Notes under the pieces: generated by a model
Database searches by the model: none
What the model saw: only the letters and a program-made list of their open reading frames with translations
What the model was told of the DNA's origin: nothing
Made by a program: the position numbers and the translations under genes
Virus record (IMG/VR): IMGVR_UViG_3300010167_000010
Location: 224,001-288,000 of that record
Origin: a virus
Lineage: Duplodnaviria > Caudoviricetes
Strand: one strand, 5' to 3'
Length of the DNA stretch: 64,000 nt
Part shown: positions 690-53,896 of the stretch, piece after piece
Layout: each line of letters starts with the position of its first letter
How positions within the stretch are numbered: position 1 is the stretch's first letter

Positions 690-695
690 AATTAT

Positions 696-780
696 GGCCG
701 AGTGATGTAATTGGTAGTACATAGCAGACTTAAAATCTGCCGCCCGTAAGGGCGTGAGGGTTCAAGTCCCTCCTCGGCCA
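696..780 (+). tRNA. trnL: tRNA-Leu (anticodon UAA)
   Basis: Acceptor GGCCGAG/CTCGGCC + discriminator A; anticodon stem GCAGA/TCTGC with loop CT-TAA-AA; long variable arm GCCC-GTAA-GGGC; T arm GAGGG-TTCAAGT-CCCTC. CCA not encoded. Confidence 0.96.
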
Positions 781-784
781 ATTT

Positions 785-25920: not shown

Positions 25921-28635
25921 TTAAATTTGTGGAAGATTTTCTAAAATTAAAGTAACAGTTTCACTGAATACATTAACTCTAATATCAACCTTCATAACAA
26001 AGTTTCTTTGAGCCTTAGTCATTGGAGTATTTTGTCCAGTAATATCACAAGTTGCCATTGCCCAAATTGGTGATGAACCACCCGTTCTTCTAGCTAAAAT
26101 ACTTTCAACTTGAGTTTGTCTTAATCCCATCCAATATTCGTTTATCGGTTTCATAATTTGTGGTCTCATTACATTATCTCTAATTTCTCTCTTAACAAGT
26201 TGGAAAGATAATGAGTGTCCTAAGAATGACCAGTCAGATAAGAAATTTGGATCTTGTGTAGTTTTTTGAGATACAATCATTAAACCATCATCAGATGTAA
26301 ATACGATTGGGTTAATTCCCTTAGTATCTAAAGTTTTTGTTGCTTCATCTTCAAATTGATATCTTGATCTTAATACGCTTCTCTTTAATTGTCCACCTAA
26401 ATCACCGGCAATATTATACCAAGCTGGTGCCCAACCACCGTATTTTCTTTCTACAATTCTCATTAAGTTACATCCAATATCACCTACTGGTTGACACCAA
26501 TACTTCTTAAATGTAATTGGATCATACATTTCAAATTCACCACAATATTGTGCATTAGAACGAGTTGCAACTCTTCCTGATACAATTGCTCTTTGTGCAA
26601 TTTGATCTGTTACTACACCTTTATTATTAGGTGTCATAAGTTTTGGAGAGATAACAGCAGCTAATTCTTGTTGTTGACTTATTGTTGCTAAATCACCTTT
26701 GAATTGTTCTTGACCAGTTAATTCCATAAAAATATAAACGTCATCATATTCTGGTAAAAGAGCTTCTTGTAAACCTTCTCTGATAATTGGACCAAATTCT
26801 GGTCTCCATGCTCCACCTACTTTTTGTTCGAGTAAGTTCATAGTTACGAGAAGAGTCATATATCTATCACCTTCAATAGTGAAACCTCTTTCAGTAAATA
26901 TATTTCCATCACCGTCCATATCGAAAGGATCTACAATTCTTCTATGTGTCCAAAAACCTGTTCCGTCTAAATCGTCTGCATCATCGCCGAATTTCTTTAA
27001 TACTCTAACTTCAATAAATGATACGTCATCGTCTTGAAGTATTTCTGGGAAATAAATATTACTTCCAAATGAGTCAACACCTCTTTCATCAAGAGAACCA
27101 GTAAACTCACCGCCAGATGTTCTTCTGCCAATATAAACTTCTTCTGAACAACCAACTGTTAAAGCATTAAACCAAATATTTTTTGGTGCACTATCACCAG
27201 TTGACATCCCTCTTACGTATGCGTTTGGACCATCTTGACCAAACTTAGCAATATACTCTTCTTCAGTTAAAAGATGTTTAATAGATGTTGCTGTTTCAAC
27301 ATAAAATATTTTATGGAATAAATCATTATTAGTAACATTAATTATAGAATTTTGACAAGTAAAGTATTGTGTTGCAAATTGTCCAGTAACAACACTATGG
27401 AAAGGTGTTGCACCTTCTTCATTTAATTGACCAATATAAGCAACTCTTTCTGGTCTAGCAGGATCAAAGAATGCAATAAATTCATTATCTAAAACTGCTT
27501 GTCTTATAGCTTGTTGTTGATCTTGTGGAATTCCAGAAGGCATTTGTACTACAAGTCTTCCAGTATTATCGAACTCAGTTCTATTAAATGGTGCATAAGC
27601 GAATAATCTATCATATCGATATTTATCGTAACCCATCATAGAAATACGAATATCAGTTGGAATTTCAGTTGGACCTTTTTGCATAAAATAACAATATGTG
27701 TCATTTCTTAAAGTTACTAAGAATGTAATTATATCTTGTAAACCAAATGGGATATTATAAGTTACACTACCAACTTGAACAAAACCGTCAACTAAAAGTT
27801 TCATTAAACTAGAAAGCATTGGTTGCGGATTACTTTCGTCGCCGTTTCCAATTACTAATGCATCATAATTTACTTGACCAATAAAATCTCTTAATGGGAT
27901 TCTATCATCACCCATATTATATTTAAATCCAAAATCTGCCATAGAAGCTGTTTGGCTTGAGAATGACCAGAAATCACCGTCATTATCTCCCCAGAAAGTT
28001 TTGACTGTCCCAACGCCAGAAACTAAACCGTCTCTCATTACGTCATAATCAATATCAGTTACATTTAATCTTCTATCTTTAGTTAAGATAAGAGCACTGT
28101 TATCATCTTTCTTAAATTCAAATACTCCATATCCAGGTTCACCAACATCTGGTGTAAAATCTTCTAGTTCAGGTGCTTGTATAATTATTCTGGTAAGTCT
28201 GTTACTAAAGTCAGCATTGAACATATGTTCTCTACCAGGTTCGACTGCTACTTTATAAGCGTTACCAACATTGTCAGCTAATTCTTGTTTATCAGATATA
28301 TTATAAAATTTATAAAGTCCGTTTTTTGTTACATAAAAACCACCAAGGTATGATGGATATGCAGCACTAGTTCCAGGAGGCGCAGATATATATAATGGAT
28401 ATTCGTCATTGAAGGCCTTTGCTTCTACAAGATCTGGCCAATGTGCTGAACCTACACCACCTAATGCATCAATCGCTTGTGCACTACCTTGTGGAAAATA
28501 AGTTGGTCTTTGATTTCCTTTAGGAGCTCTACAAACCATGTACCCATTGAGTGGGCTCTCAGCTGTTGATAAAACAAATGAAGAATCTATATCTATAAAT
28601 TTTAATCTCCAAGATCTTCTATTATTAAATGCCAT
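25921..28635 (-). CDS. Tail sheath protein (large, with insertion domains)
   Basis: C-terminal GGWAPAW..G.LK, LDTKGINPIVF, SQKTTQ..SDW, CDITGQNTP..RNFVMKVDIR; AAGGAG SD. Confidence 0.85.
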   Translation of the reverse strand: MAFNNRRSWRLKFIDIDSSFVLSTAESPLNGYMVCRAPKGNQRPTYFPQGSAQAIDALGGVGSAHWPDLVEAKAFNDEYPLYISAPPGTSAAYPSYLGGFYVTKNGLYKFYNISDKQELADNVGNAYKVAVEPGREHMFNADFSNRLTRIIIQAPELEDFTPDVGEPGYGVFEFKKDDNSALILTKDRRLNVTDIDYDVMRDGLVSGVGTVKTFWGDNDGDFWSFSSQTASMADFGFKYNMGDDRIPLRDFIGQVNYDALVIGNGDESNPQPMLSSLMKLLVDGFVQVGSVTYNIPFGLQDIITFLVTLRNDTYCYFMQKGPTEIPTDIRISMMGYDKYRYDRLFAYAPFNRTEFDNTGRLVVQMPSGIPQDQQQAIRQAVLDNEFIAFFDPARPERVAYIGQLNEEGATPFHSVVTGQFATQYFTCQNSIINVTNNDLFHKIFYVETATSIKHLLTEEEYIAKFGQDGPNAYVRGMSTGDSAPKNIWFNALTVGCSEEVYIGRRTSGGEFTGSLDERGVDSFGSNIYFPEILQDDDVSFIEVRVLKKFGDDADDLDGTGFWTHRRIVDPFDMDGDGNIFTERGFTIEGDRYMTLLVTMNLLEQKVGGAWRPEFGPIIREGLQEALLPEYDDVYIFMELTGQEQFKGDLATISQQQELAAVISPKLMTPNNKGVVTDQIAQRAIVSGRVATRSNAQYCGEFEMYDPITFKKYWCQPVGDIGCNLMRIVERKYGGWAPAWYNIAGDLGGQLKRSVLRSRYQFEDEATKTLDTKGINPIVFTSDDGLMIVSQKTTQDPNFLSDWSFLGHSLSFQLVKREIRDNVMRPQIMKPINEYWMGLRQTQVESILARRTGGSSPIWAMATCDITGQNTPMTKAQRNFVMKVDIRVNVFSETVTLILENLPQI

Positions 28636-46953: not shown

Positions 46954-49209
46954 TTAGAACATTTCATCACTACGTACAGGAATTAATGTAGATTGTTTAG
47001 TAGAATGCCATTTTCCATCAGCTCCTAAATAAACTGCCCATGAAGGTACAACTTCTTTATTATCGGTAGTCATATCGTCTGTAATTTCTCCTAAACCTAT
47101 TCCATAACTTATAGTTTCTCTGTGATATCTTTCATCATATACTGTATTAGGTTGATTAAAAGAATTTTTAGCATCATATTCTTTATGTAATTGATATAAT
47201 CCACCAGCATTAACATTATATTCTTTATCGTCTGAATTATTTCTGCCAATCATTCCATTATATACACCAAAATTTTGTATATGTGTAATATAATAACATA
47301 AATTCCAACGTAAACCTTTTAATTGAGATTCTATTTCTCGTAATGACCAAGGATTAGTTGATGGATTATATGATGTTGGTAAATTAATTGTATCTATTCT
47401 TTCTTTAATTAAATCTATATTTCCACTATTTACAATTAAAGTATTTAAGTCTATAAGTTCTTTAATTATATTATATTCTATTTGAGATGGATTATTTATC
47501 CAAGATGTAATTTCATAATGTGGTTCTTCAGCATCTAAATTATAATCTATATTTGTTGGATCACCTATTACATCAGCATTTGTTCTATAATTTTTAAATT
47601 TATGGCTTCTAATTGATGGTCGAGTATCAACAGTAACACGTCTATCATTTAAACCTCTAGGATAACCAGCTTCTTCATTTTCTGAAACAGCTTCATTATC
47701 TGGTTTTCTACCTCCAGCTAATTCTTTAATCATTTTCCAAAGTTCATCTATTGTTGGAGATATAATACGACCATTCATTATTAAATTTCCATCTTTTGGA
47801 ATTAAGATTGGAAAATCGTTATAATCTTCTGAACCTTTTCTAGATTCTGGATCAAACCAAACTTGGGGTGGAGTATCTAATGCTTCTGATGTAAAATGTG
47901 GGGTATCCATTCCATCAATTTGCAATTCGAGTGGCTCAACAGGAAGTGCACCAATTCTACTATGTGGATCATCTGCATTTTCTATAATAAAATCCATTTG
48001 TTGACGGAAATTAAAATTGCCTTGTCTAGTTGGTAATAATGTATCTCTTAGAATATCTACTGATGGAGTTGTTGATGGTAAATAAGGTCGCGATGCTCTT
48101 GCTAAATCGCGAGCTGCTATTGCTCCTTCTGAAAATAATTTATTATATCTTTTAAAATCACCTGTTTTAGTTAACATTAAATTTTCGTGAATAACTTTAG
48201 CTGATTTATTTAGAGATTGATCGAAATCTCTATAATCTATATAATCGGCAAAGAAAGAACATTTAATCCAAACATAACAATGTTCTAATAAATATCTTAA
48301 TACTGGGTTTATATGAAGAACTATAATCCCATTACATGAAACAAAATCGTTAACTTCATTTTGCGTTAAATTTATTCTAGCATTATAATATTTCATTAAA
48401 TTTTGCCAAACATTAACAGAAGAATAATTTACACAAAGTCCATTATAAGCTCTAATTTGATAAGTGTCAACATTCGTGCTATCATCATATTCACCAAAAA
48501 GAAATCTATCTTCAAAAGCCCTATCTCTATTAGATAAAATAATGTCTGCACCATCAACATTTCTAGAAACATAATCTTCTTCAACTGCAATTTTCCAAGG
48601 ATAGGGATAATCAGCCCAAGTATTTGGTTCTTCTCTATTTAATGGAACTAATACTGAATTATTATAAAAATCGAAAGATGTTTGTGGTTTTAATGCTGCA
48701 TCTTTATCCCATATTTTAAATCCTCGTGACTTAAAAAAATCTAAACTATCAGGATCTTGTGGGTTTAATAAAGTTAACAAATTTCCTATATCTGTTTGCG
48801 AAGCATTTCTTATATATGTAGTAACATTCGCTGGATTTAAATGTAATGGTTTAACTCTTTTATCAAATTTTGGTAAACAAATATCAAAACCAGATTTTGC
48901 CCATTGTTCAAATGTTGTTCCACCATCTCCAGGTGAGTCTTCTTTTATTAAATCTCTATAACCTAATTGAAAACTAGGAAATCTATAAATATTTTGATCA
49001 AATACTATAATATTATGTTGTAATTCTAAACCCATAGACTTAAATGAAGATTCAGTTGCATTTTTTACATATCTGGTACACAATCTATTTGCAGCATCAG
49101 TAAAAAACATCAAATCAAATAGAGAAACTTGCATTGCAACAGGTCTATAGTTACTTTGTGATAATGGAACCTTCCATTCTCTATATAAAGTTATCGGATT
49201 ATTAGCCAT
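46954..49209 (-). CDS. Hypothetical structural protein
   Basis: 751 aa; CTAACTATT motif upstream; co-oriented with the giant protein. Confidence 0.65.
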   Translation of the reverse strand: MANNPITLYREWKVPLSQSNYRPVAMQVSLFDLMFFTDAANRLCTRYVKNATESSFKSMGLELQHNIIVFDQNIYRFPSFQLGYRDLIKEDSPGDGGTTFEQWAKSGFDICLPKFDKRVKPLHLNPANVTTYIRNASQTDIGNLLTLLNPQDPDSLDFFKSRGFKIWDKDAALKPQTSFDFYNNSVLVPLNREEPNTWADYPYPWKIAVEEDYVSRNVDGADIILSNRDRAFEDRFLFGEYDDSTNVDTYQIRAYNGLCVNYSSVNVWQNLMKYYNARINLTQNEVNDFVSCNGIIVLHINPVLRYLLEHCYVWIKCSFFADYIDYRDFDQSLNKSAKVIHENLMLTKTGDFKRYNKLFSEGAIAARDLARASRPYLPSTTPSVDILRDTLLPTRQGNFNFRQQMDFIIENADDPHSRIGALPVEPLELQIDGMDTPHFTSEALDTPPQVWFDPESRKGSEDYNDFPILIPKDGNLIMNGRIISPTIDELWKMIKELAGGRKPDNEAVSENEEAGYPRGLNDRRVTVDTRPSIRSHKFKNYRTNADVIGDPTNIDYNLDAEEPHYEITSWINNPSQIEYNIIKELIDLNTLIVNSGNIDLIKERIDTINLPTSYNPSTNPWSLREIESQLKGLRWNLCYYITHIQNFGVYNGMIGRNNSDDKEYNVNAGGLYQLHKEYDAKNSFNQPNTVYDERYHRETISYGIGLGEITDDMTTDNKEVVPSWAVYLGADGKWHSTKQSTLIPVRSDEMF

Positions 49210-49240
49210 AATAGTTAGTTGTAGAAGTTTTAATTACATT

Positions 49241-49273
49241 TTGAACGCTATATGTTAATTTCTTATATAATAT
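49241..49273 (+). promoter_or_regulatory. Sigma70-like early promoter upstream of TopIB
   Basis: TTGAAC-N14-TCT-TATATAAT immediately before ATG 49274. Confidence 0.6.
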
Positions 49274-50977
49274 ATGAATATGAGTAAACAAGCACGGTTC
49301 AAATCACTACAATCAAATGGTCCAGTATTCCCCAAAAAATGGGAACATAAGGGCTACCACGCGGCTGGAGAAAAGCTTCCCCTTCTTGCAGAAGAAATGG
49401 CTTGGAAAGCAGCTCGTTTTATTGGTTCAGATTATGAAAAAGAATGTTTCGCATCTGATTCTAATATGTGGAAATGCTTTTATCCAGAATTGACCAAATC
49501 GCAACAAAAATTATCACATGCTGATTATATTGCGATGATGAGTGGTATGAAGGCAACACAAGAGATTTTAAAAGAAGAAAAGAAAGCTCTTTCAAAAGAA
49601 GAAAAAATAGCAATTAAAAATGAAAAAGAAGCTCTTAAAGAAAAATACGGATTCGCAATTCTTGATGGTGAAAGTGTTCCCCTTTCCGGATATATGATTG
49701 AAGAGTCAAATTGGATTTTAACTCGCGGTAAAGATCCCCGAAAATTTTGTTGGAAATATGCTGTAGAAAAATCTGATGTTACTTTGAATATTGTAAATGG
49801 AAAACCAGTTTCAGGATTTAATTGTATTTCTGATAATACAGTTATTTGGGTAATGCGATATAAAATTAAATGCGGAAGACCTGAGATGAAGGCTTTTATG
49901 GAGCTCAATAAAATTATTGCTTTTGCTCCTTCTGTTTCAGTTCGTCAAGCTAATAATTCTGGAAAATTTGATAAATCTAAAAATATTCTTAAAAATTGGA
50001 ATAAAATTCAATCTCAAGTTCTTGCTGATGCTACCGATTGTTCATTAAAGAAAAATCCTAAGCATGAAGCACTTATCGTGTATCTTATTCAAGAAACTGG
50101 TATTCGTATTGGTGGTGAAAAAGATGAACGAAGAGCTAAAACTTATGGAATGAGTACTCTTGAAAAAAGACATATAACTCTTGGTTCAGATTTTACAGTA
50201 ACATTTGATTTTCTTGGAAAAGATAGTGTTCCTGAAACGAGAACAATAATTATTGATGAAAATGTTTGGTATAATCTTGAAAGTCTTTTAGCTTGTAGAG
50301 ATACAAATGAAAGAATATTTAATAATGATATAGACGTTAATGGTTACCTCAAGAAAATACATCCTGGTGCAACAGTTAAAAATCTTCGTACTGTAAAATG
50401 TAATGAAGTTTTGGTAAAAAATCTTAAAACAAAAAAAGTTACAAAAACAAATACTGAGGCCGAAAAGCTTAGAGCAATATTTGAAGCAAATCTCGAAATT
50501 GCAAAGACAATGAATCACCAAAAAAATATTGGTAAAAATCAAAAAGAAGGTGAAGTAAAAATTGCTGAAAAAGTTCAAAAAGCGAAAGCTCGTGTAAAAG
50601 AACTTAAGAAAAAGCATAAAGAGAAAATAATTAAACTTGATACTCAGGTAGCAAAAATTAAAATTGCTTTCAAAGGCATGAAGATATTAAAAGAAAAACT
50701 TGCCAAAATTGAAGAAACAAAAATTAAAATGATTGCTCAAATGGAAAGAGCAGTAATGAGCATTGAAAAAACAGAATTTGCTCTTGACAAGAAAAAACTT
50801 ACTGCGGATATTGCTTTGGGAACTTCCCTTGCAAATTATGCTGACCCTAACGTAATATATTCTTATTGCAAATACGTAGATCTCCCAATTGAAAGAATAT
50901 ATTCTGCTAGTCAGAGAAAAAATCTAACTTTTGCTGAAAGTGTAGATGCAAATTATTGGATAAATTACCCAAGTTAA
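49274..50977 (+). CDS. DNA topoisomerase IB, large eukaryote/thaumarchaeal type
   Basis: Catalytic pentad motifs GIRIGGEK (R), FDFLGKDS (K), KNLRT (R), MNHQK (H), IALGTSLANYADP (Y); N-terminal SLQSNGPVFP and KYGFAILDG core motifs; coiled-coil linker. Confidence 0.92.
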   Translation: MNMSKQARFKSLQSNGPVFPKKWEHKGYHAAGEKLPLLAEEMAWKAARFIGSDYEKECFASDSNMWKCFYPELTKSQQKLSHADYIAMMSGMKATQEILKEEKKALSKEEKIAIKNEKEALKEKYGFAILDGESVPLSGYMIEESNWILTRGKDPRKFCWKYAVEKSDVTLNIVNGKPVSGFNCISDNTVIWVMRYKIKCGRPEMKAFMELNKIIAFAPSVSVRQANNSGKFDKSKNILKNWNKIQSQVLADATDCSLKKNPKHEALIVYLIQETGIRIGGEKDERRAKTYGMSTLEKRHITLGSDFTVTFDFLGKDSVPETRTIIIDENVWYNLESLLACRDTNERIFNNDIDVNGYLKKIHPGATVKNLRTVKCNEVLVKNLKTKKVTKTNTEAEKLRAIFEANLEIAKTMNHQKNIGKNQKEGEVKIAEKVQKAKARVKELKKKHKEKIIKLDTQVAKIKIAFKGMKILKEKLAKIEETKIKMIAQMERAVMSIEKTEFALDKKKLTADIALGTSLANYADPNVIYSYCKYVDLPIERIYSASQRKNLTFAESVDANYWINYPS

Positions 50978-50985
50978 TTATGAAT

Positions 50986-51432
50986 ATGAAAAATTGGAAA
51001 TACAGTTGGAAAAGCGTAACAGACAAAGATTATATAGACTCTATTATGATCTTCTGGAAGTTTTTTAAAGAAAATTATCAAAATGTTTTCGTTTATAATG
51101 CTTGCCATTATGAAATTCGTTTAATAACTTTAAATATTGGAAGAGGAAAAGAAATTCTTTCTTCAGAAGCTGCTTCCAAATCTACACAAAAAGATGAACA
51201 TCATCTTGTAGAAGCAAAACAATTTCTTGATGAATTTAAATACTGTGTTGATAACAAAATTGAATTTACAAGAAAGGATGCAAAATCTTGGCTTATTAAG
51301 GCTAGAAATATTTACGTTACTAAACCAGAGCACAATATTTTACATTCTAAAGTTTTCAAAGATTATAGAAAAAATAATCCGACAGAGAATATAATAAAAG
51401 TTTTAGAAAAATTTGGAATTATTTTAATTTAA
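50986..51432 (+). CDS. Hypothetical protein, possibly HNH-like
   Basis: DEHHLV..YVTKPEH motif. Start likely ATG 50980 or 50986. Confidence 0.55.
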   Translation: MKNWKYSWKSVTDKDYIDSIMIFWKFFKENYQNVFVYNACHYEIRLITLNIGRGKEILSSEAASKSTQKDEHHLVEAKQFLDEFKYCVDNKIEFTRKDAKSWLIKARNIYVTKPEHNILHSKVFKDYRKNNPTENIIKVLEKFGIILI

Positions 51433-51460
51433 TTCTTATATTTTATTAAGAGGAAAGAAA

Positions 51461-53896
51461 ATGATTTTAGACAACAAGAATTATAATATTGAAAACAATT
51501 TGGAAACTGAATCTAGCGAATTTGAAATTGCTGCTAATGCAAAAATGTTTGATATATTATCAAATAAAATTTATGAAGATCCAATCAGAGCAGTAATTCG
51601 TGAGCTTTCCTGTAATGCTATCGATGCTAATATTGAAGTAGAAAATATTGAACCATTTAAAGTTTATCTTCCAACCCAAAATTATAAATCTTTAATTATT
51701 GAAGATAACGGTATAGGCATGACCCATGAAGATGTTATGACAGTTTATAAATCTTATGGAAAATCTACTAAATCTAATTCTAATAAGGTAATTGGTGCAT
51801 TAGGTTTAGGCGGGAAAACACCTCTTGCTTATACTTCACAATTTATTTTAGAAACTGCAAAAGATGGAAAGAAAAATAGTTATATAATTTTTAAAGATGA
51901 AGATGGTATTCCAAACGTTACTTTAACTTCTTCAGAAGATACTGATATTTCTGGAACAAAAATTGAAATGATTGTTCGTAATGAAGATATCGATCTTTTT
52001 ATTACAGCAGCTATTAAAACTTTTGTTTTCTTTGATAAAATGCCGATAATTATGAGAGGAGAAGACGAGTTTTATAGAGTAATATATCAAAAATTTAGTA
52101 ATACTATGGAAATAGGAAAGGCTAAATTAGCTTTTGATGAAGCTAGATTTTTATTAAAGAATGATTATATTTCTAATGAAAGCAACGGTGGCGATATTAT
52201 TATTCGTAAAATATTAAATAGCTATAATAGTACACATGGAATTATTATGGGACAAGTTTATTATTCAGTAAATCCTAAAGCAATTTTAAGAGATGGTTAT
52301 GGAACAGCTGCTGAAGAAGTATTAAATTTTCCAAATTATAGTAATTATTCTGGCATAAGAAAAGTTATTCATGTAAATCTTGGTGATGTATCTTTTCAAC
52401 CTTCACGTGAAGTATTAAATTATAATAAATCTACAATTGCTTTACTTCAAAATAGATTTTATAATCATTTTGAAAATTATATCGTAAATATGGAAAATTA
52501 CAAGGATCCAAAAACTTTCTTGAAGAATTTTTCTAAAATAAATTATGCAAAAGATGTAGTAAAAATCTCTACATGGGATGATACAAATCAAGATGTTTCT
52601 TCTATAAGAGATTTATATAAAAATGTTATAAATTATTTGTATTCTGAAATTGATCAAAAAGAAGCAAATTATTATATTAAGCAACGCCATAATGGAACTT
52701 GGGAAGTACAAGCTATAGCTCAAGACAGCGCATCAAAAATACAAGACTTAAACACTACAAAAAGTATTTTTTCTGATATATTTGTAGAAAACAAAATAAA
52801 AAATATTATTGTATTAGATGATGCAAATATTTCTGAAAAACTGGATAATTTTCATAAGAAAGCTTTAGAAAAACAAAGATTTTATTTTACTACTCCAATA
52901 AGTTTAAGAAATAAACTTGTTCTTCTTGATAAAACTATAAATACATTATGTGTAACTGAAAAGACAGCAAAAAAATTAAAAGCTTTTCTAAAAATAGATT
53001 TTATAAATTGTTCTAAATTAGTAGTTACAAAAGAAGCTAAAATTAAAACAAAATCTGAAAGAGATACTTCTGCAAAATGTTATAATTATACTGAAAGAAG
53101 ATATGCCGAAATTAATGAAGTATTAAAAATTACTAAGAAAAATAAAGTTACATATGAATGTTTTGAAGGAGAAGTAAATAAGAAAGGTTGGTGGTATACT
53201 CCTTTATTTGATGTAATAAATAAGAGTACAAAAATAAATAAGCAGGCTTGTATTAAAATAAATTATCATGGAAGCTATAATAATTGCAGTAATAGAGTAG
53301 AAGATTTTAATACGATATTTAATATGCTTCCCAGTAATAGACCGCATCATTATTTGGTAGATTGGAATTTCTTTAAAAAATATATTATTGGAAATAAAAA
53401 TTGGGTTCATATAAATGATTATGCAACCAATTTAATTAAGGATAATTTTAATACAATTTCAACTAACGCATTAAATATAATTTTATTTGGTGATTCTCCA
53501 TTTTATAGATCAACTCAAGCTGAGGCATTATTAAAACATGGAACTGAAAAATATCTTAATTTTGAAAATACAGCTTTTGGAATAGAATGTCAAAGAAAAA
53601 TTAATGAATCGTTTAATAAAGAAACTGATATTAGCTTAAATAAAAAGACAGTATCTACATTTCATAATTCTCTTATGGGAATGAAAGAATATTTTAGTTC
53701 AGACAGTTTTAATAAACTATTAAAAGATTTTGAAGAATTAAAATTAAAATTAGAAGCTGTCAATATAAAAAGAGTAAATTATTGTACAGAAATATATGAA
53801 AAATATCCGATGATTATTTATGCATTAAAATCTGATTTCGATAAAGATCACTTAATAAATTATATTGCAGAAAAAGAGAGCTTAGTATTAAAATGA
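51461..53896 (+). CDS. rIIA: rIIA-like protein (N-terminal GHKL ATPase domain)
   Basis: FDILSNKIYEDPIRAVIRELSCNAIDA, EDNGIGM, YGKSTK..IGALGLGGK, FQPSREVL. Confidence 0.88.
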   Translation: MILDNKNYNIENNLETESSEFEIAANAKMFDILSNKIYEDPIRAVIRELSCNAIDANIEVENIEPFKVYLPTQNYKSLIIEDNGIGMTHEDVMTVYKSYGKSTKSNSNKVIGALGLGGKTPLAYTSQFILETAKDGKKNSYIIFKDEDGIPNVTLTSSEDTDISGTKIEMIVRNEDIDLFITAAIKTFVFFDKMPIIMRGEDEFYRVIYQKFSNTMEIGKAKLAFDEARFLLKNDYISNESNGGDIIIRKILNSYNSTHGIIMGQVYYSVNPKAILRDGYGTAAEEVLNFPNYSNYSGIRKVIHVNLGDVSFQPSREVLNYNKSTIALLQNRFYNHFENYIVNMENYKDPKTFLKNFSKINYAKDVVKISTWDDTNQDVSSIRDLYKNVINYLYSEIDQKEANYYIKQRHNGTWEVQAIAQDSASKIQDLNTTKSIFSDIFVENKIKNIIVLDDANISEKLDNFHKKALEKQRFYFTTPISLRNKLVLLDKTINTLCVTEKTAKKLKAFLKIDFINCSKLVVTKEAKIKTKSERDTSAKCYNYTERRYAEINEVLKITKKNKVTYECFEGEVNKKGWWYTPLFDVINKSTKINKQACIKINYHGSYNNCSNRVEDFNTIFNMLPSNRPHHYLVDWNFFKKYIIGNKNWVHINDYATNLIKDNFNTISTNALNIILFGDSPFYRSTQAEALLKHGTEKYLNFENTAFGIECQRKINESFNKETDISLNKKTVSTFHNSLMGMKEYFSSDSFNKLLKDFEELKLKLEAVNIKRVNYCTEIYEKYPMIIYALKSDFDKDHLINYIAEKESLVLK

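What the first reader, a model, noticed from the sequence alone, without database searches (positions are those of the whole stretch)
49274..50977. Eukaryote/thaumarchaeal-type large topoisomerase IB encoded by a tailed phage
Seen: all five catalytic motifs in eukaryotic form (GIRIGGEK, FDFLGKDS, KNLRT, MNHQK, IALGTSLANYADP). Also seen: the N-terminal core-subdomain motifs (SLQSNGPVFP, cf. human LEHKGPVF; KYGFAILDG; TRG.DP) and a long coiled-coil linker before the catalytic Tyr. Known: bacterial and poxviral TopIB enzymes are smaller and lack this core and linker; the large type is characteristic of eukaryotes and Thaumarchaeota, and large phages usually encode type II topoisomerases. The gene has its own sigma70-like promoter and visibly uses more CTT/CGT/AAG codons than its neighbours. 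Inference: an early-expressed, possibly horizontally acquired enzyme relevant to the origin of eukaryotic Top1.
Basis: partly seen in the sequence, partly recalled or inferred. Interest (0 to 1): 0.85.

Follow-up and report, generated by a model that had tools for sequence, protein, structure and literature searches.

The report
Eukaryote-style topoisomerase IB in spirochaete jumbo phage
A 329-kb T4-like phage, probably of a spirochaete, carries a complete and apparently active "long" DNA-relaxing enzyme (topoisomerase IB) otherwise known from eukaryotes, their giant viruses and some archaea; it is the phage's only recognisable topoisomerase and belongs to a large phage-borne branch that I could not find described.

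Summary
ORF 49274-50977 (+) encodes a 567-aa protein. It has all three Pfam domains of long TopIB, the invariant pentad R278/K316/R372/H415/Y522, and a 94-pLDDT model that overlays human TOP1 at full length (TM 0.84), including an 87-residue two-helix linker.

It is native to the phage, not chimeric. Gene order is conserved in 174-kb and 328-kb relatives. The promoter-like motif upstream is conserved in orthologous loci and recurs 15 times in this genome.

The complete 329-kb genome, which has terminal repeats, shows no type IA or IIA topoisomerase; neither do five other TopIB phage records. TopIB sits directly upstream of an rIIA homologue, where T4 keeps its topo II genes 39 and 60.

In trees, about 50 phage-context sequences form their own clan. 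It is separate from the archaeal clan and from the eukaryote plus giant-virus clan. The root is unresolved (AU p 0.20-0.57).

The codon oddity is real: 76% CTN leucine codons against about 22% genome-wide. It recurs in 12 of 14 relatives, so it reflects selection, not recent transfer.

A spirochaete host is inferred from a phage FlaB gene. This scan has already reported the same phage branch in at least 7 other genomes. I found no paper describing it.

The parts
49241..49269 (+). Promoter-like motif TTGAAC-N15-CTTATATA, ending 4 nt before the ATG, with no Shine-Dalgarno sequence
   Evidence: It is conserved in orthologous loci L002, L096, L098 and L097. It is one of 15 copies of TTGAA-N13-18-CTTATA(T/A)(A/T) in the genome, all on the + strand and 4-57 nt upstream of ORFs.
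49274..50977 (+). Long-form type IB DNA topoisomerase gene (567 aa, P0001)
49295..49864 (+). Cap (Topoisom_I_N) domain, residues 8-197; includes R151, the counterpart of human R364
   Evidence: Pfam E 3.3e-22. R151 is invariant in 64 sequences.
49937..50614 (+). Catalytic core (Topoisom_I), residues 222-447, with R278 (50105-50107), K316 (50219-50221), R372 (50387-50389) and H415 (50516-50518)
   Evidence: Pfam E 7.3e-41. These residues are invariant in alignment A1 and in 123 sequences.
50540..50800 (+). Linker: two long antiparallel helices, residues 423-465 and 471-509
   Evidence: AlphaFold2 model with pLDDT 94-97 in this stretch. His-to-Tyr spacing is 106 residues, against 90 in an animal TOP1.
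50762..50956 (+). C-terminal domain (Topo_C_assoc), residues 497-561, with the catalytic Tyr522 (50837-50839) preceded by N521
   Evidence: Pfam E 6.3e-15. Y522 is invariant and aligns with human Y723.
50956..51432 (+). ORF of 158 aa (150 aa from the first ATG) of unknown function between TopIB and rIIA; relatives have only about 30 nt here
   Evidence: There is no significant Pfam match.
51461..53896 (+). rIIA homologue (GHKL ATPase N-terminus), co-directional and immediately downstream of TopIB
   Evidence: phrog_612 'RIIA lysis inhibitor' at E 5e-85 over the full length. 35% identity to T4 rIIA over 171 aa, E 1e-24. HATPase_c_3. The adjacency is conserved in relatives.
46954..49209 (-). Divergently transcribed 751-aa gene of unknown function; its ATG is preceded by a conserved AACTAACTATT motif
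   Evidence: Homologous 790- and 811-aa genes hold the same position in relatives.

Best explanation
The gene encodes a functional long-form type IB topoisomerase. The enzyme would be a C-shaped clamp of cap plus catalytic core that encircles duplex DNA and nicks one strand through Tyr522, forming a 3'-phosphotyrosyl intermediate with the help of R278, K316, R372 and H415. The broken strand then swivels under the control of the coiled-coil linker, and the enzyme reseals the nick. This relaxes both positive and negative supercoils without ATP or Mg.

In this 329-kb T4-like spirochaete phage it is the only recognisable topoisomerase. It sits where T4 keeps its topo II genes, directly upstream of rIIA. 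I therefore read it as a non-orthologous replacement of phage topo II that acts as the swivel for phage DNA replication and transcription. It is expressed from its own sigma70-like promoter, probably before the late genes.

Shown: the architecture, the catalytic residues, the fold, native residence in the phage, the absence of detectable type IA and IIA topoisomerases, and membership of a phage-specific clan. Inferred: the enzymatic activity, the timing of expression and the physiological role.
For: - Domains: all three Pfam domains score above their cut-offs.
- Sequence: the protein aligns end to end with human Topo70 (residues 8-555 against 42-582, E 2e-42).
- Catalytic residues: the pentad, plus R151, D317 and N521, is conserved. 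The pentad is invariant in 64 sequences and in 123 sequences.
- Structure: the AF2 model has pLDDT 94.4 and pTM 0.87 and shows a two-helix linker. Foldseek gives TM 0.84 to the human TOP1-DNA complex 1K4T over about 589 columns. Poxviral and Deinococcus enzymes align over only about 230 columns.
- Native to the phage: the order [giant gene][~790 aa] then [TopIB][rIIA][~280 aa][radical SAM] recurs on 328-kb and 174-kb contigs whose TopIB is 63-64% identical. The promoter motif is conserved across loci and shared with 14 other genes of this genome.
- Phage identity: the record is 329,018 bp with direct terminal repeats and 100% CheckV completeness. It carries a baseplate wedge (phrog_219, 7e-17), rIIA, and GroEL, a gp63-like RNA ligase and DnaB.
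- No other topoisomerase: PF00521, PF00204 and PF01131 were not found in the complete genome, while the controls rang. PF00521 was also not found in 5 other TopIB-bearing phage records of 133-388 kb.
- Position: T4 has the order 39-60-rIIA.1-rIIA.
- Bacterial host: the phage FlaB is 63-68% identical to spirochaete FlaB in 79 of the 80 best genome loci.
Against: - There is no biochemical evidence. The activity is inferred from conservation alone.
- Standard Pfam models for terminase, T4 capsid and sheath found nothing in the genome. 'Tailed phage' therefore rests on baseplate, rIIA and other T4-like genes plus a weak capsid hit.
- A very divergent type II or type IA topoisomerase could escape the Pfam models, and host gyrase may also serve the phage.
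- The TopIB-rIIA adjacency is absent in more distant members of the clan.
- The rIIA gene next door does not share the TopIB codon bias, so the bias is not simply a property of the transcription unit.
Confidence: 0.8

Rival explanations
1. This phage lineage recently acquired the gene from a thaumarchaeon, an Asgard archaeon, a eukaryote or a giant virus. The odd codon usage would be the footprint of that transfer.
For: The TopIB gene has the most deviant Leu codon usage of all 164 large ORFs. Its best named sequence relatives are archaeal and eukaryotic.
Against: - In the trees it is not nested in any cellular or giant-virus clade. It lies in a clan of about 40-50 phage-context sequences with long internal branches.
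- Identity to archaeal and eukaryotic enzymes is only 27-31%.
- Synteny and the promoter are conserved in relatives that are 52-64% identical.
- The preference for CTN over TTA recurs in 12 of 14 relatives' loci, which points to selection rather than to sequence that has not yet adapted to the phage genome.
- GC content of the gene (0.31) is within one standard deviation of the genome mean.
Confidence: 0.04
2. The contig is an assembly chimera or contaminant: archaeal or eukaryotic DNA joined to phage DNA at this point.
For: None beyond the unexpected taxonomy of the gene.
Against: - The same gene order appears on independent contigs from other samples.
- Composition is uniform across the junctions.
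- A phage-specific promoter motif lies directly upstream.
- The record is closed by direct terminal repeats.
Confidence: 0.01
3. The element is a giant virus of eukaryotes (Nucleocytoviricota), where long TopIB is common, and not a bacteriophage.
For: Many giant-virus MAG contigs in IMG/VR encode long TopIB. The genome is large (329 kb) and AT-rich.
Against: - The genome carries T4-type rIIA, a baseplate wedge, a gp63-like ligase, DnaB, bacterial solute-binding and SLT domains, and a spirochaete FlaB.
- Genes are densely packed and overlapping, without introns.
- No NCLDV capsid match was found, although that control did not ring either.
- Giant-virus TopIBs fall in the eukaryote clan, far from this protein, and have short linkers.
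Confidence: 0.02
4. The enzyme is mainly directed at the host. By relaxing the gyrase-maintained negative supercoiling of the host chromosome, it would shut down host transcription early in infection or escape dependence on host gyrase, rather than act as the phage replication swivel.
For: - Bacteria normally lack an enzyme that freely relaxes negative supercoils this efficiently.
- The gene has a host-type (sigma70-like) promoter.
- Its codon usage avoids TTA, the codon served by a phage tRNA-Leu(UAA).
- It lies next to rIIA, a host-interaction gene.
Against: No direct evidence exists. The lack of any other phage topoisomerase in six records is explained more simply by a replication and transcription role. 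The two roles are not exclusive.
Confidence: 0.15

Closest known systems
Eukaryotic nuclear topoisomerase I (human TOP1, Topo70 form; PDB 1K4T, 1A36, 1RRJ)
   Same: It has the same four-part architecture of cap, catalytic core, coiled-coil linker and C-terminal domain. The catalytic pentad R488/K532/R590/H632/Y723 corresponds to R278/K316/R372/H415/Y522. The drug-site residues R364, D533 and N722 correspond to R151, D317 and N521 (human numbering from my own knowledge). The fold overlays at full length with TM 0.84. Linker length is comparable (His-to-Tyr 106 against 90).
   Different: Identity is only about 25-28%. The phage protein has no charged N-terminal extension: 7 residues precede the core, against a median of 128 in the eukaryote clan. 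It is encoded by a phage of bacteria and forms a separate phylogenetic clan.
Archaeal long TopIB (Thaumarchaeota and Caldiarchaeum CsTOP1, PDB 6Z01/6Z03; Asgard Thorarchaeota)
   Same: It has the same domains, a similar size (about 520-560 aa) and no N-terminal extension. E is 1e-38 to 6Z01. CsTOP1 relaxes both signs of supercoil (PMC4824112).
   Different: Identity is 28-31%. The CsTOP1 linker is shorter: 53 aa against 76 in human TOP1 (PMC4824112). The archaeal sequences form their own clan with 100% SH-aLRT support, which excludes the phage sequences. CsTOP1 is camptothecin-resistant, so drug sensitivity of the phage enzyme cannot be predicted.
Short TopIB of poxviruses, mimivirus and bacteria (vaccinia/variola, PDB 2H7F, 3IGC; Deinococcus, 2F4Q)
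   Same: It shares the catalytic-domain fold and chemistry. These were until now the viral form of TopIB.
   Different: The short enzymes have about 314-346 aa, a small unrelated N-terminal domain, and neither a Topoisom_I_N cap nor a linker. They align with the phage model over only about 230 columns, with TM 0.27-0.32 relative to the query and E 1e-6 to 4e-5 by sequence.
T4 topoisomerase II (gp39/gp60/gp52)
   Same: It has the same inferred job, relieving torsional stress of phage replication and transcription. It also has the same map position directly upstream of rIIA.
   Different: T4 topo II is an unrelated ATP-dependent type IIA enzyme. No homologue was detected in this genome.
Rhizobium phage RHph_N46-type 'putative topoisomerase I' (606 aa; phrog_23460)
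   Same: It is the only TopIB-related protein that I found in deposited phage genomes, and it shares the Topoisom_I catalytic core.
   Different: It has no Topoisom_I_N or Topo_C_assoc domain. It matches the query over only 18% of its length at 32% identity. I used it here only as an outgroup.

Membership tests
Long-form (eukaryote/archaeal-type) topoisomerase IB | N-terminal cap domain (Pfam Topoisom_I_N, PF02919) | tested here: met
   E 3.3e-22, 79.5 bits against a cut-off of 25, residues 8-197.
Long-form (eukaryote/archaeal-type) topoisomerase IB | Catalytic core (Topoisom_I, PF01028) and C-terminal domain (Topo_C_assoc, PF14370) | tested here: met
   E 7.3e-41 and 6.3e-15, both above their cut-offs.
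Long-form (eukaryote/archaeal-type) topoisomerase IB | Catalytic pentad Arg-Lys-Arg-His-Tyr | tested here: met
   R278, K316, R372, H415 and Y522 align with human R488, K532, R590, H632 and Y723. They are invariant in 64 sequences and in 123 sequences.
Long-form (eukaryote/archaeal-type) topoisomerase IB | Coiled-coil linker between core and C-terminal domain, and a clamp fold | tested here: met
   Helices 423-465 and 471-509 at high pLDDT. TM 0.84 to human TOP1-DNA over the full length.
Long-form (eukaryote/archaeal-type) topoisomerase IB | ATP- and Mg-independent relaxation through a 3'-phosphotyrosyl intermediate | not testable with these tools
   This needs purified protein.
Thaumarchaeal or eukaryotic subfamily specifically | Branches inside the archaeal or the eukaryotic clade | tested here: not met
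   The archaeal clan (100*) and the eukaryote clan (99*) both exclude it. It lies in a separate phage-context clan.
Short-form TopIB (poxvirus/bacterial) | About 310-350 aa with a small N-terminal domain, no cap and no linker | tested here: not met
   The protein has 567 aa with a Topoisom_I_N cap and a linker. It aligns only partly with 2H7F, 3IGC and 2F4Q.
Tailed phage (Caudoviricetes, T4-like) | Tail/baseplate genes and T4-type accessory genes | tested here: met
   Baseplate wedge phrog_219 at 7e-17. rIIA at 5e-85, confirmed against T4 rIIA at 1e-24. gp63-like ligase at 2e-43, plus DnaB and GroEL.
Tailed phage (Caudoviricetes, T4-like) | HK97-fold major capsid protein and large terminase | tested here: inconclusive
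   PF03237, PF17289, PF07068 and PF04984 were not found. There is only a weak tblastn hit of a 653-aa ORF to a myovirus capsid gene (E 3e-4). No structure-based test was run.

The most novel reading that the evidence does not exclude
The phage-borne long TopIBs would be the sister group of the eukaryote plus giant-virus TOP1 clade, with the root among Archaea, as in my site-heterogeneous outgroup tree. Eukaryotic TOP1, with its long linker, would then share a more recent ancestor with a viral enzyme than with any sampled archaeal one. That would imply a virus-to-proto-eukaryote transfer, or the reverse, around eukaryogenesis, parallel to the viral origin proposed for eukaryotic topo IIA.
Probability: 0.2. 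Interest if true: 0.85.

Novelty: new member of a known kind. Interest (0 to 1): 0.66.

Why it matters
The published picture is that long TopIB belongs to eukaryotes and some archaea, while viruses and bacteria have only the short form (PMC4824112, PMC8748870). This window and its relatives show a large, diverse, phage-borne branch of the long enzyme in jumbo phages of bacteria. In the records examined, these phages lack a type II topoisomerase.

This matters in three ways:
- It adds a third major lineage to any reconstruction of where eukaryotic TOP1 came from.
- It suggests a different solution to the supercoiling problem of very large phage genomes: an ATP-independent swivel instead of topo II.
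- It offers small enzymes without an N-terminal extension, probably soluble, for mechanistic work on the TOP1 linker and on TOP1 poisons.

Tried and rejected
- The generic sigma-70 scan of 48900-51600 gave 18 sites against 13.7 +/- 3.6 expected and missed the site in question. I replaced it with cross-locus conservation and a genome-wide motif count.
- The treekit AU test with the PMSF mixture model did not finish within three 300-s calls. I replaced it with constrained IQ-TREE searches and an AU test under LG+F+G4.
- A search for short bacterial TopIBs to use as an outgroup, using the Rhizobium-phage protein as query, returned only that phage family. The rooting therefore rests on one divergent outgroup.
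- Pfam models for terminase (PF03237, PF17289), T4 capsid (PF07068), sheath (PF04984) and NCLDV capsid (PF04451) found nothing in the genome. For PF07068 and PF04451 the controls did not ring either.
- The candidate sheath gene at 25921-28635 has no match in GenBank phages.
- The 284-aa gene after rIIA shows no similarity to T4 rIIB.
- The other high-CTT genes gave no informative family apart from an AAA ATPase and an HNH domain. This neither supports nor excludes the idea that codon bias marks highly expressed genes.
- The idea that the bias marks the whole TopIB-rIIA unit is rejected, because rIIA uses 26% CTN.
- Six literature searches found no report of long TopIB in phages.
Full report
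**Observation.** The window holds an uninterrupted ORF at 49274..50977 on the + strand that encodes 567 aa. Pfam finds the complete long-form set, all above the curated cut-offs:
- Topoisom_I_N, residues 8-197, E 3.3e-22
- Topoisom_I, residues 222-447, E 7.3e-41
- Topo_C_assoc, residues 497-561, E 6.3e-15

**The protein.**
- phmmer against PDB sequences aligns residues 8-555 with residues 42-582 of human Topo70 in one stretch (E about 2e-42). It then finds Caldiarchaeum CsTOP1 (1e-38) and the Leishmania enzyme.
- Deinococcus and poxvirus short enzymes match only part of the catalytic domain (1e-6 to 4e-5).
- In a 64-sequence alignment the invariant columns include R278, K316, R372, H415 and Y522, which is the catalytic pentad. 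They also include R151 and D317. N521 lies directly before the tyrosine.
- From my own knowledge of human numbering, these correspond to R488, K532, R590, H632 and Y723, and to the drug-site residues R364, D533 and N722.
- An AlphaFold2 model built on that alignment has mean pLDDT 94.4 and pTM 0.87. It shows two long helices, 423-465 and 471-509, between the core and the C-terminal domain.
- Foldseek places the whole model on human TOP1-DNA complexes (1K4T: TM 0.84, about 589 columns). Variola and Deinococcus enzymes cover only about 230 columns.
- The protein starts directly at the cap domain, without the charged N-terminal extension of eukaryotic enzymes. Its His-to-Tyr spacing (106) slightly exceeds that of an animal TOP1 (90).

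**The genome.**
- The window is positions 224001-288000 of a 329,018-bp IMG/VR virus record with direct terminal repeats and 100% estimated completeness.
- Within and near the window lie a baseplate wedge gene (phrog_219, 7e-17), an RNA ligase, a PIF1-like helicase and a clamp-loader-like gene. GroEL, a gp63-like RNA ligase/tail-fibre attachment protein and DnaB also occur.
- The 811-aa GHKL ATPase immediately downstream of TopIB is an rIIA homologue. It matches phrog_612 at 5e-85 over its full length and is 35% identical to T4 rIIA over 171 residues (E 1e-24).
- Standard Pfam models for terminase, T4 capsid and sheath found nothing. A 653-aa ORF gives only a weak hit to a myovirus capsid gene. 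The label 'T4-like tailed jumbo phage' is therefore well supported by accessory and baseplate genes, but not yet by capsid or terminase.
I located it. It is 63-68% identical to FlaB of Spirochaetota, and 79 of the 80 best genome loci are named as spirochaetes. The host is therefore most likely a spirochaete, that is, a bacterium.

**Not chimeric, not recent.**
- On a 328-kb and a 174-kb contig whose TopIB is 63-64% identical, the order is the same. A 2000-2400-aa gene and a ~790-aa gene lie on one strand. TopIB, the HATPase_c_3 (rIIA) gene, a ~280-aa gene and a radical SAM gene lie on the other.
- The 64-nt divergent intergenic region is conserved between loci. TTTTGAAC, a spacer and TCTTATATA end 4 nt before the conserved ATG, and there is no Shine-Dalgarno sequence.
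- The same motif, TTGAAC-N15/16-CTTATAT(A/T), occurs 15 times in the genome. All copies are on the + strand and 4-57 nt upstream of an ORF. The looser pattern occurs 29 times against 8-16 in shuffles. The gene therefore uses one of the phage's own promoter classes, which is sigma70-like and so probably read by host RNA polymerase.

**Codon usage.**
CTT is 61% of Leu codons against 16% genome-wide, the highest of 164 ORFs. CTN is 76% in TopIB against 13-43% in all 17 other window genes examined, including rIIA at 26%.
- The same shift away from TTA is seen in the TopIB genes of 12 of 14 related loci relative to their flanks. Genes directly behind the 15 promoter copies have higher CTN than the background (median 0.39 against 0.22; Mann-Whitney p = 0.002, n = 8).
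- A bias kept in orthologues whose proteins are only 30-64% identical must be selected. It is not a footprint of recent transfer.
- One idea, untested, is that the gene must be translated before the phage tRNA-Leu(UAA) (695-781) is available. The strength of the bias in TopIB alone remains unexplained.

**Sole topoisomerase, in the topo II position.**
- The complete genome gives no match to the type IIA A-subunit (PF00521), to GyrB (PF00204) or to type IA (PF01131), while the control genomes rang.
- Five other phage records with long TopIB (133-388 kb, 72-98% complete) also lack PF00521.
- In T4 the topo II genes 39 and 60 lie directly upstream of rIIA.1 and rIIA on the same strand. Here TopIB holds that position.
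- I read this as non-orthologous displacement of phage topo II by an ATP-independent swivelase. The adjacency to rIIA is limited to the close relatives. More distant members sit among replication and nucleotide-metabolism genes instead: UvsY, UvsW, clamp loader, RecA, DnaB, ribonucleotide reductase and dUTPase.

**Relatives and phylogeny.**
- A search of 1.8 billion cluster representatives found 194 proteins with E <= 1e-30.
- All 11 genomic contexts that I examined for proteins in the query's clan are phage-like. IMG/VR holds further members on contigs of 52-388 kb.
- GenBank phage genomes contain no three-domain TopIB. They hold only a 606-aa Rhizobium-phage protein with the catalytic core alone.
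- An IQ-TREE PMSF tree of 76 sequences resolves three clans. The archaeal clan covers Thaumarchaeota, Thorarchaeota and unnamed groups (SH-aLRT 100). The eukaryote clan has support 99. The remainder are all phage-context sequences, and the query sits there in starred subsets of 8 and 35 rows.
- After adding IMG/VR sequences, the many giant-virus MAG TopIBs fall inside the eukaryote clan and have short linkers. The large non-GVMAG viral contigs join the phage clan.
- All 123 sequences keep the pentad.
- With the Rhizobium-phage catalytic domain as outgroup, the mixture-model tree roots among Archaea and makes the phage clan sister to eukaryotes plus giant viruses (support 100).
- Constrained searches and an AU test under LG+F+G4 reject none of the three rootings (p 0.20-0.57). 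The root, and therefore the direction of any transfer, is unresolved.

**Host lineage.** Topoisom_I_N was found in 1 of 301 Spirochaetota genomes sampled. That single case is a 545-aa protein on a contig with cellular genes: HypF, a ROK kinase, CsgG, omptin and trp genes. It is only 26% identical to the query and falls inside the archaeal clan, 50% identical to a thaumarchaeal protein. The phage gene therefore does not come from its host lineage.

**Literature and earlier notes.**
- Papers from 2016 and 2022 state that the long form is confined to eukaryotes and some archaea, and that viruses and bacteria have short forms (PMC4824112, PMC8748870).
- Searches combining TopIB with phage terms found nothing on long TopIB in phages.
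- This scan itself has already reported the same phage-borne branch in at least 7 other genomes, with follow-ups that reached similar conclusions. My tests here were made independently of them.
- This window adds the spirochaete host, the absence of detectable type IA and IIA topoisomerases, the T4-equivalent map position, the promoter class, the conserved codon bias and the explicit test showing that the root is unresolved.

**Verdict.** The protein is a genuine member of the long TopIB family in every feature testable in silico. It is native to a T4-like jumbo phage of a bacterium and belongs to a deep phage-specific clan. The mechanism is that of the known family. What is new is the distribution and its evolutionary implications.

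Noticed in passing
L094:7526-9163 (G007:C157, a Spirochaetota genome bin): A 545-aa long TopIB with all three domains sits on a contig with ordinary bacterial genes (HypF, ROK kinase, CsgG, omptin, trpE/D). It falls inside the archaeal clan, 50% identical to a thaumarchaeal protein. It is either an archaeon-to-bacterium transfer or a mis-binned contig. It was the only hit in 301 Spirochaetota genomes.
   Followed up: partly
L106-L174 (IMG/VR GVMAG contigs): Dozens of giant-virus MAG contigs encode long TopIB. They cluster inside the eukaryote clan and have short linkers (His-to-Tyr median 69). The 2016 literature that I read lists NCLDV enzymes as short forms only.
   Followed up: partly
P0121, P0123, P0130, P0139, P0147 (N-halves, about 284-309 aa) and P0128, P0136, P0142, P0154, P0213 (C-halves, about 263-268 aa): Many cluster representatives are half-length. 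They match query residues ~3-305 or ~304-567, so they break between R278 and K316. This fits the two-piece phage TopIB reported by another follow-up of this scan. I did not check whether they are truncated by contig ends.
   Followed up: no
genome-wide; in the window at 49241-49269: A promoter-like motif class, TTGAAC-N15/16-CTTATAT(A/T), has 15 copies. All are on the + strand and each lies 4-57 nt upstream of an ORF. Two copies are only 4-5 nt from the ATG, which suggests leaderless mRNAs.
   Followed up: partly
window 49210-49222 (minus-strand sense): A conserved AACTAACTATT lies directly before the ATG of the divergent 751-aa gene and is also conserved in orthologous loci.
   Followed up: no
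window 50956-51432: A 150- to 158-aa ORF of unknown function is inserted between TopIB and rIIA. The 328-kb and 174-kb relatives have only about 30 nt there.
   Followed up: no
L008:361-2181 (Rhizobium phage RHph_N46) and P0290-P0311: A third kind of phage TopIB-like protein has about 600 aa. It carries a Topoisom_I catalytic core (with weak Phage_integrase similarity) behind a ~330-aa N-terminal region with no Pfam match. The family has 22 cluster representatives, on contigs of up to 193 kb.
   Followed up: partly
G000:C1:306495-307349 (L012:1495-2349): The phage encodes a flagellin 63-68% identical to spirochaete FlaB. I used it here only as a clue to the host.
   Followed up: partly
window 695-781 and genome-wide: A tRNA-Leu(UAA) is present, and TTA supplies 72% of Leu codons in the large ORFs. 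A handful of genes deviate strongly towards CTT: TopIB, a 451-aa ORF at G000 318877-320232, an AAA ATPase at 289650-291020, and a putative capsid gene at 211837-213798.
   Followed up: partly
L108, L165, P0168: A small, tight group of long TopIBs on 131- to 189-kb viral contigs branches between the main phage clan and the cellular clans. I did not examine their contexts.
   Followed up: no
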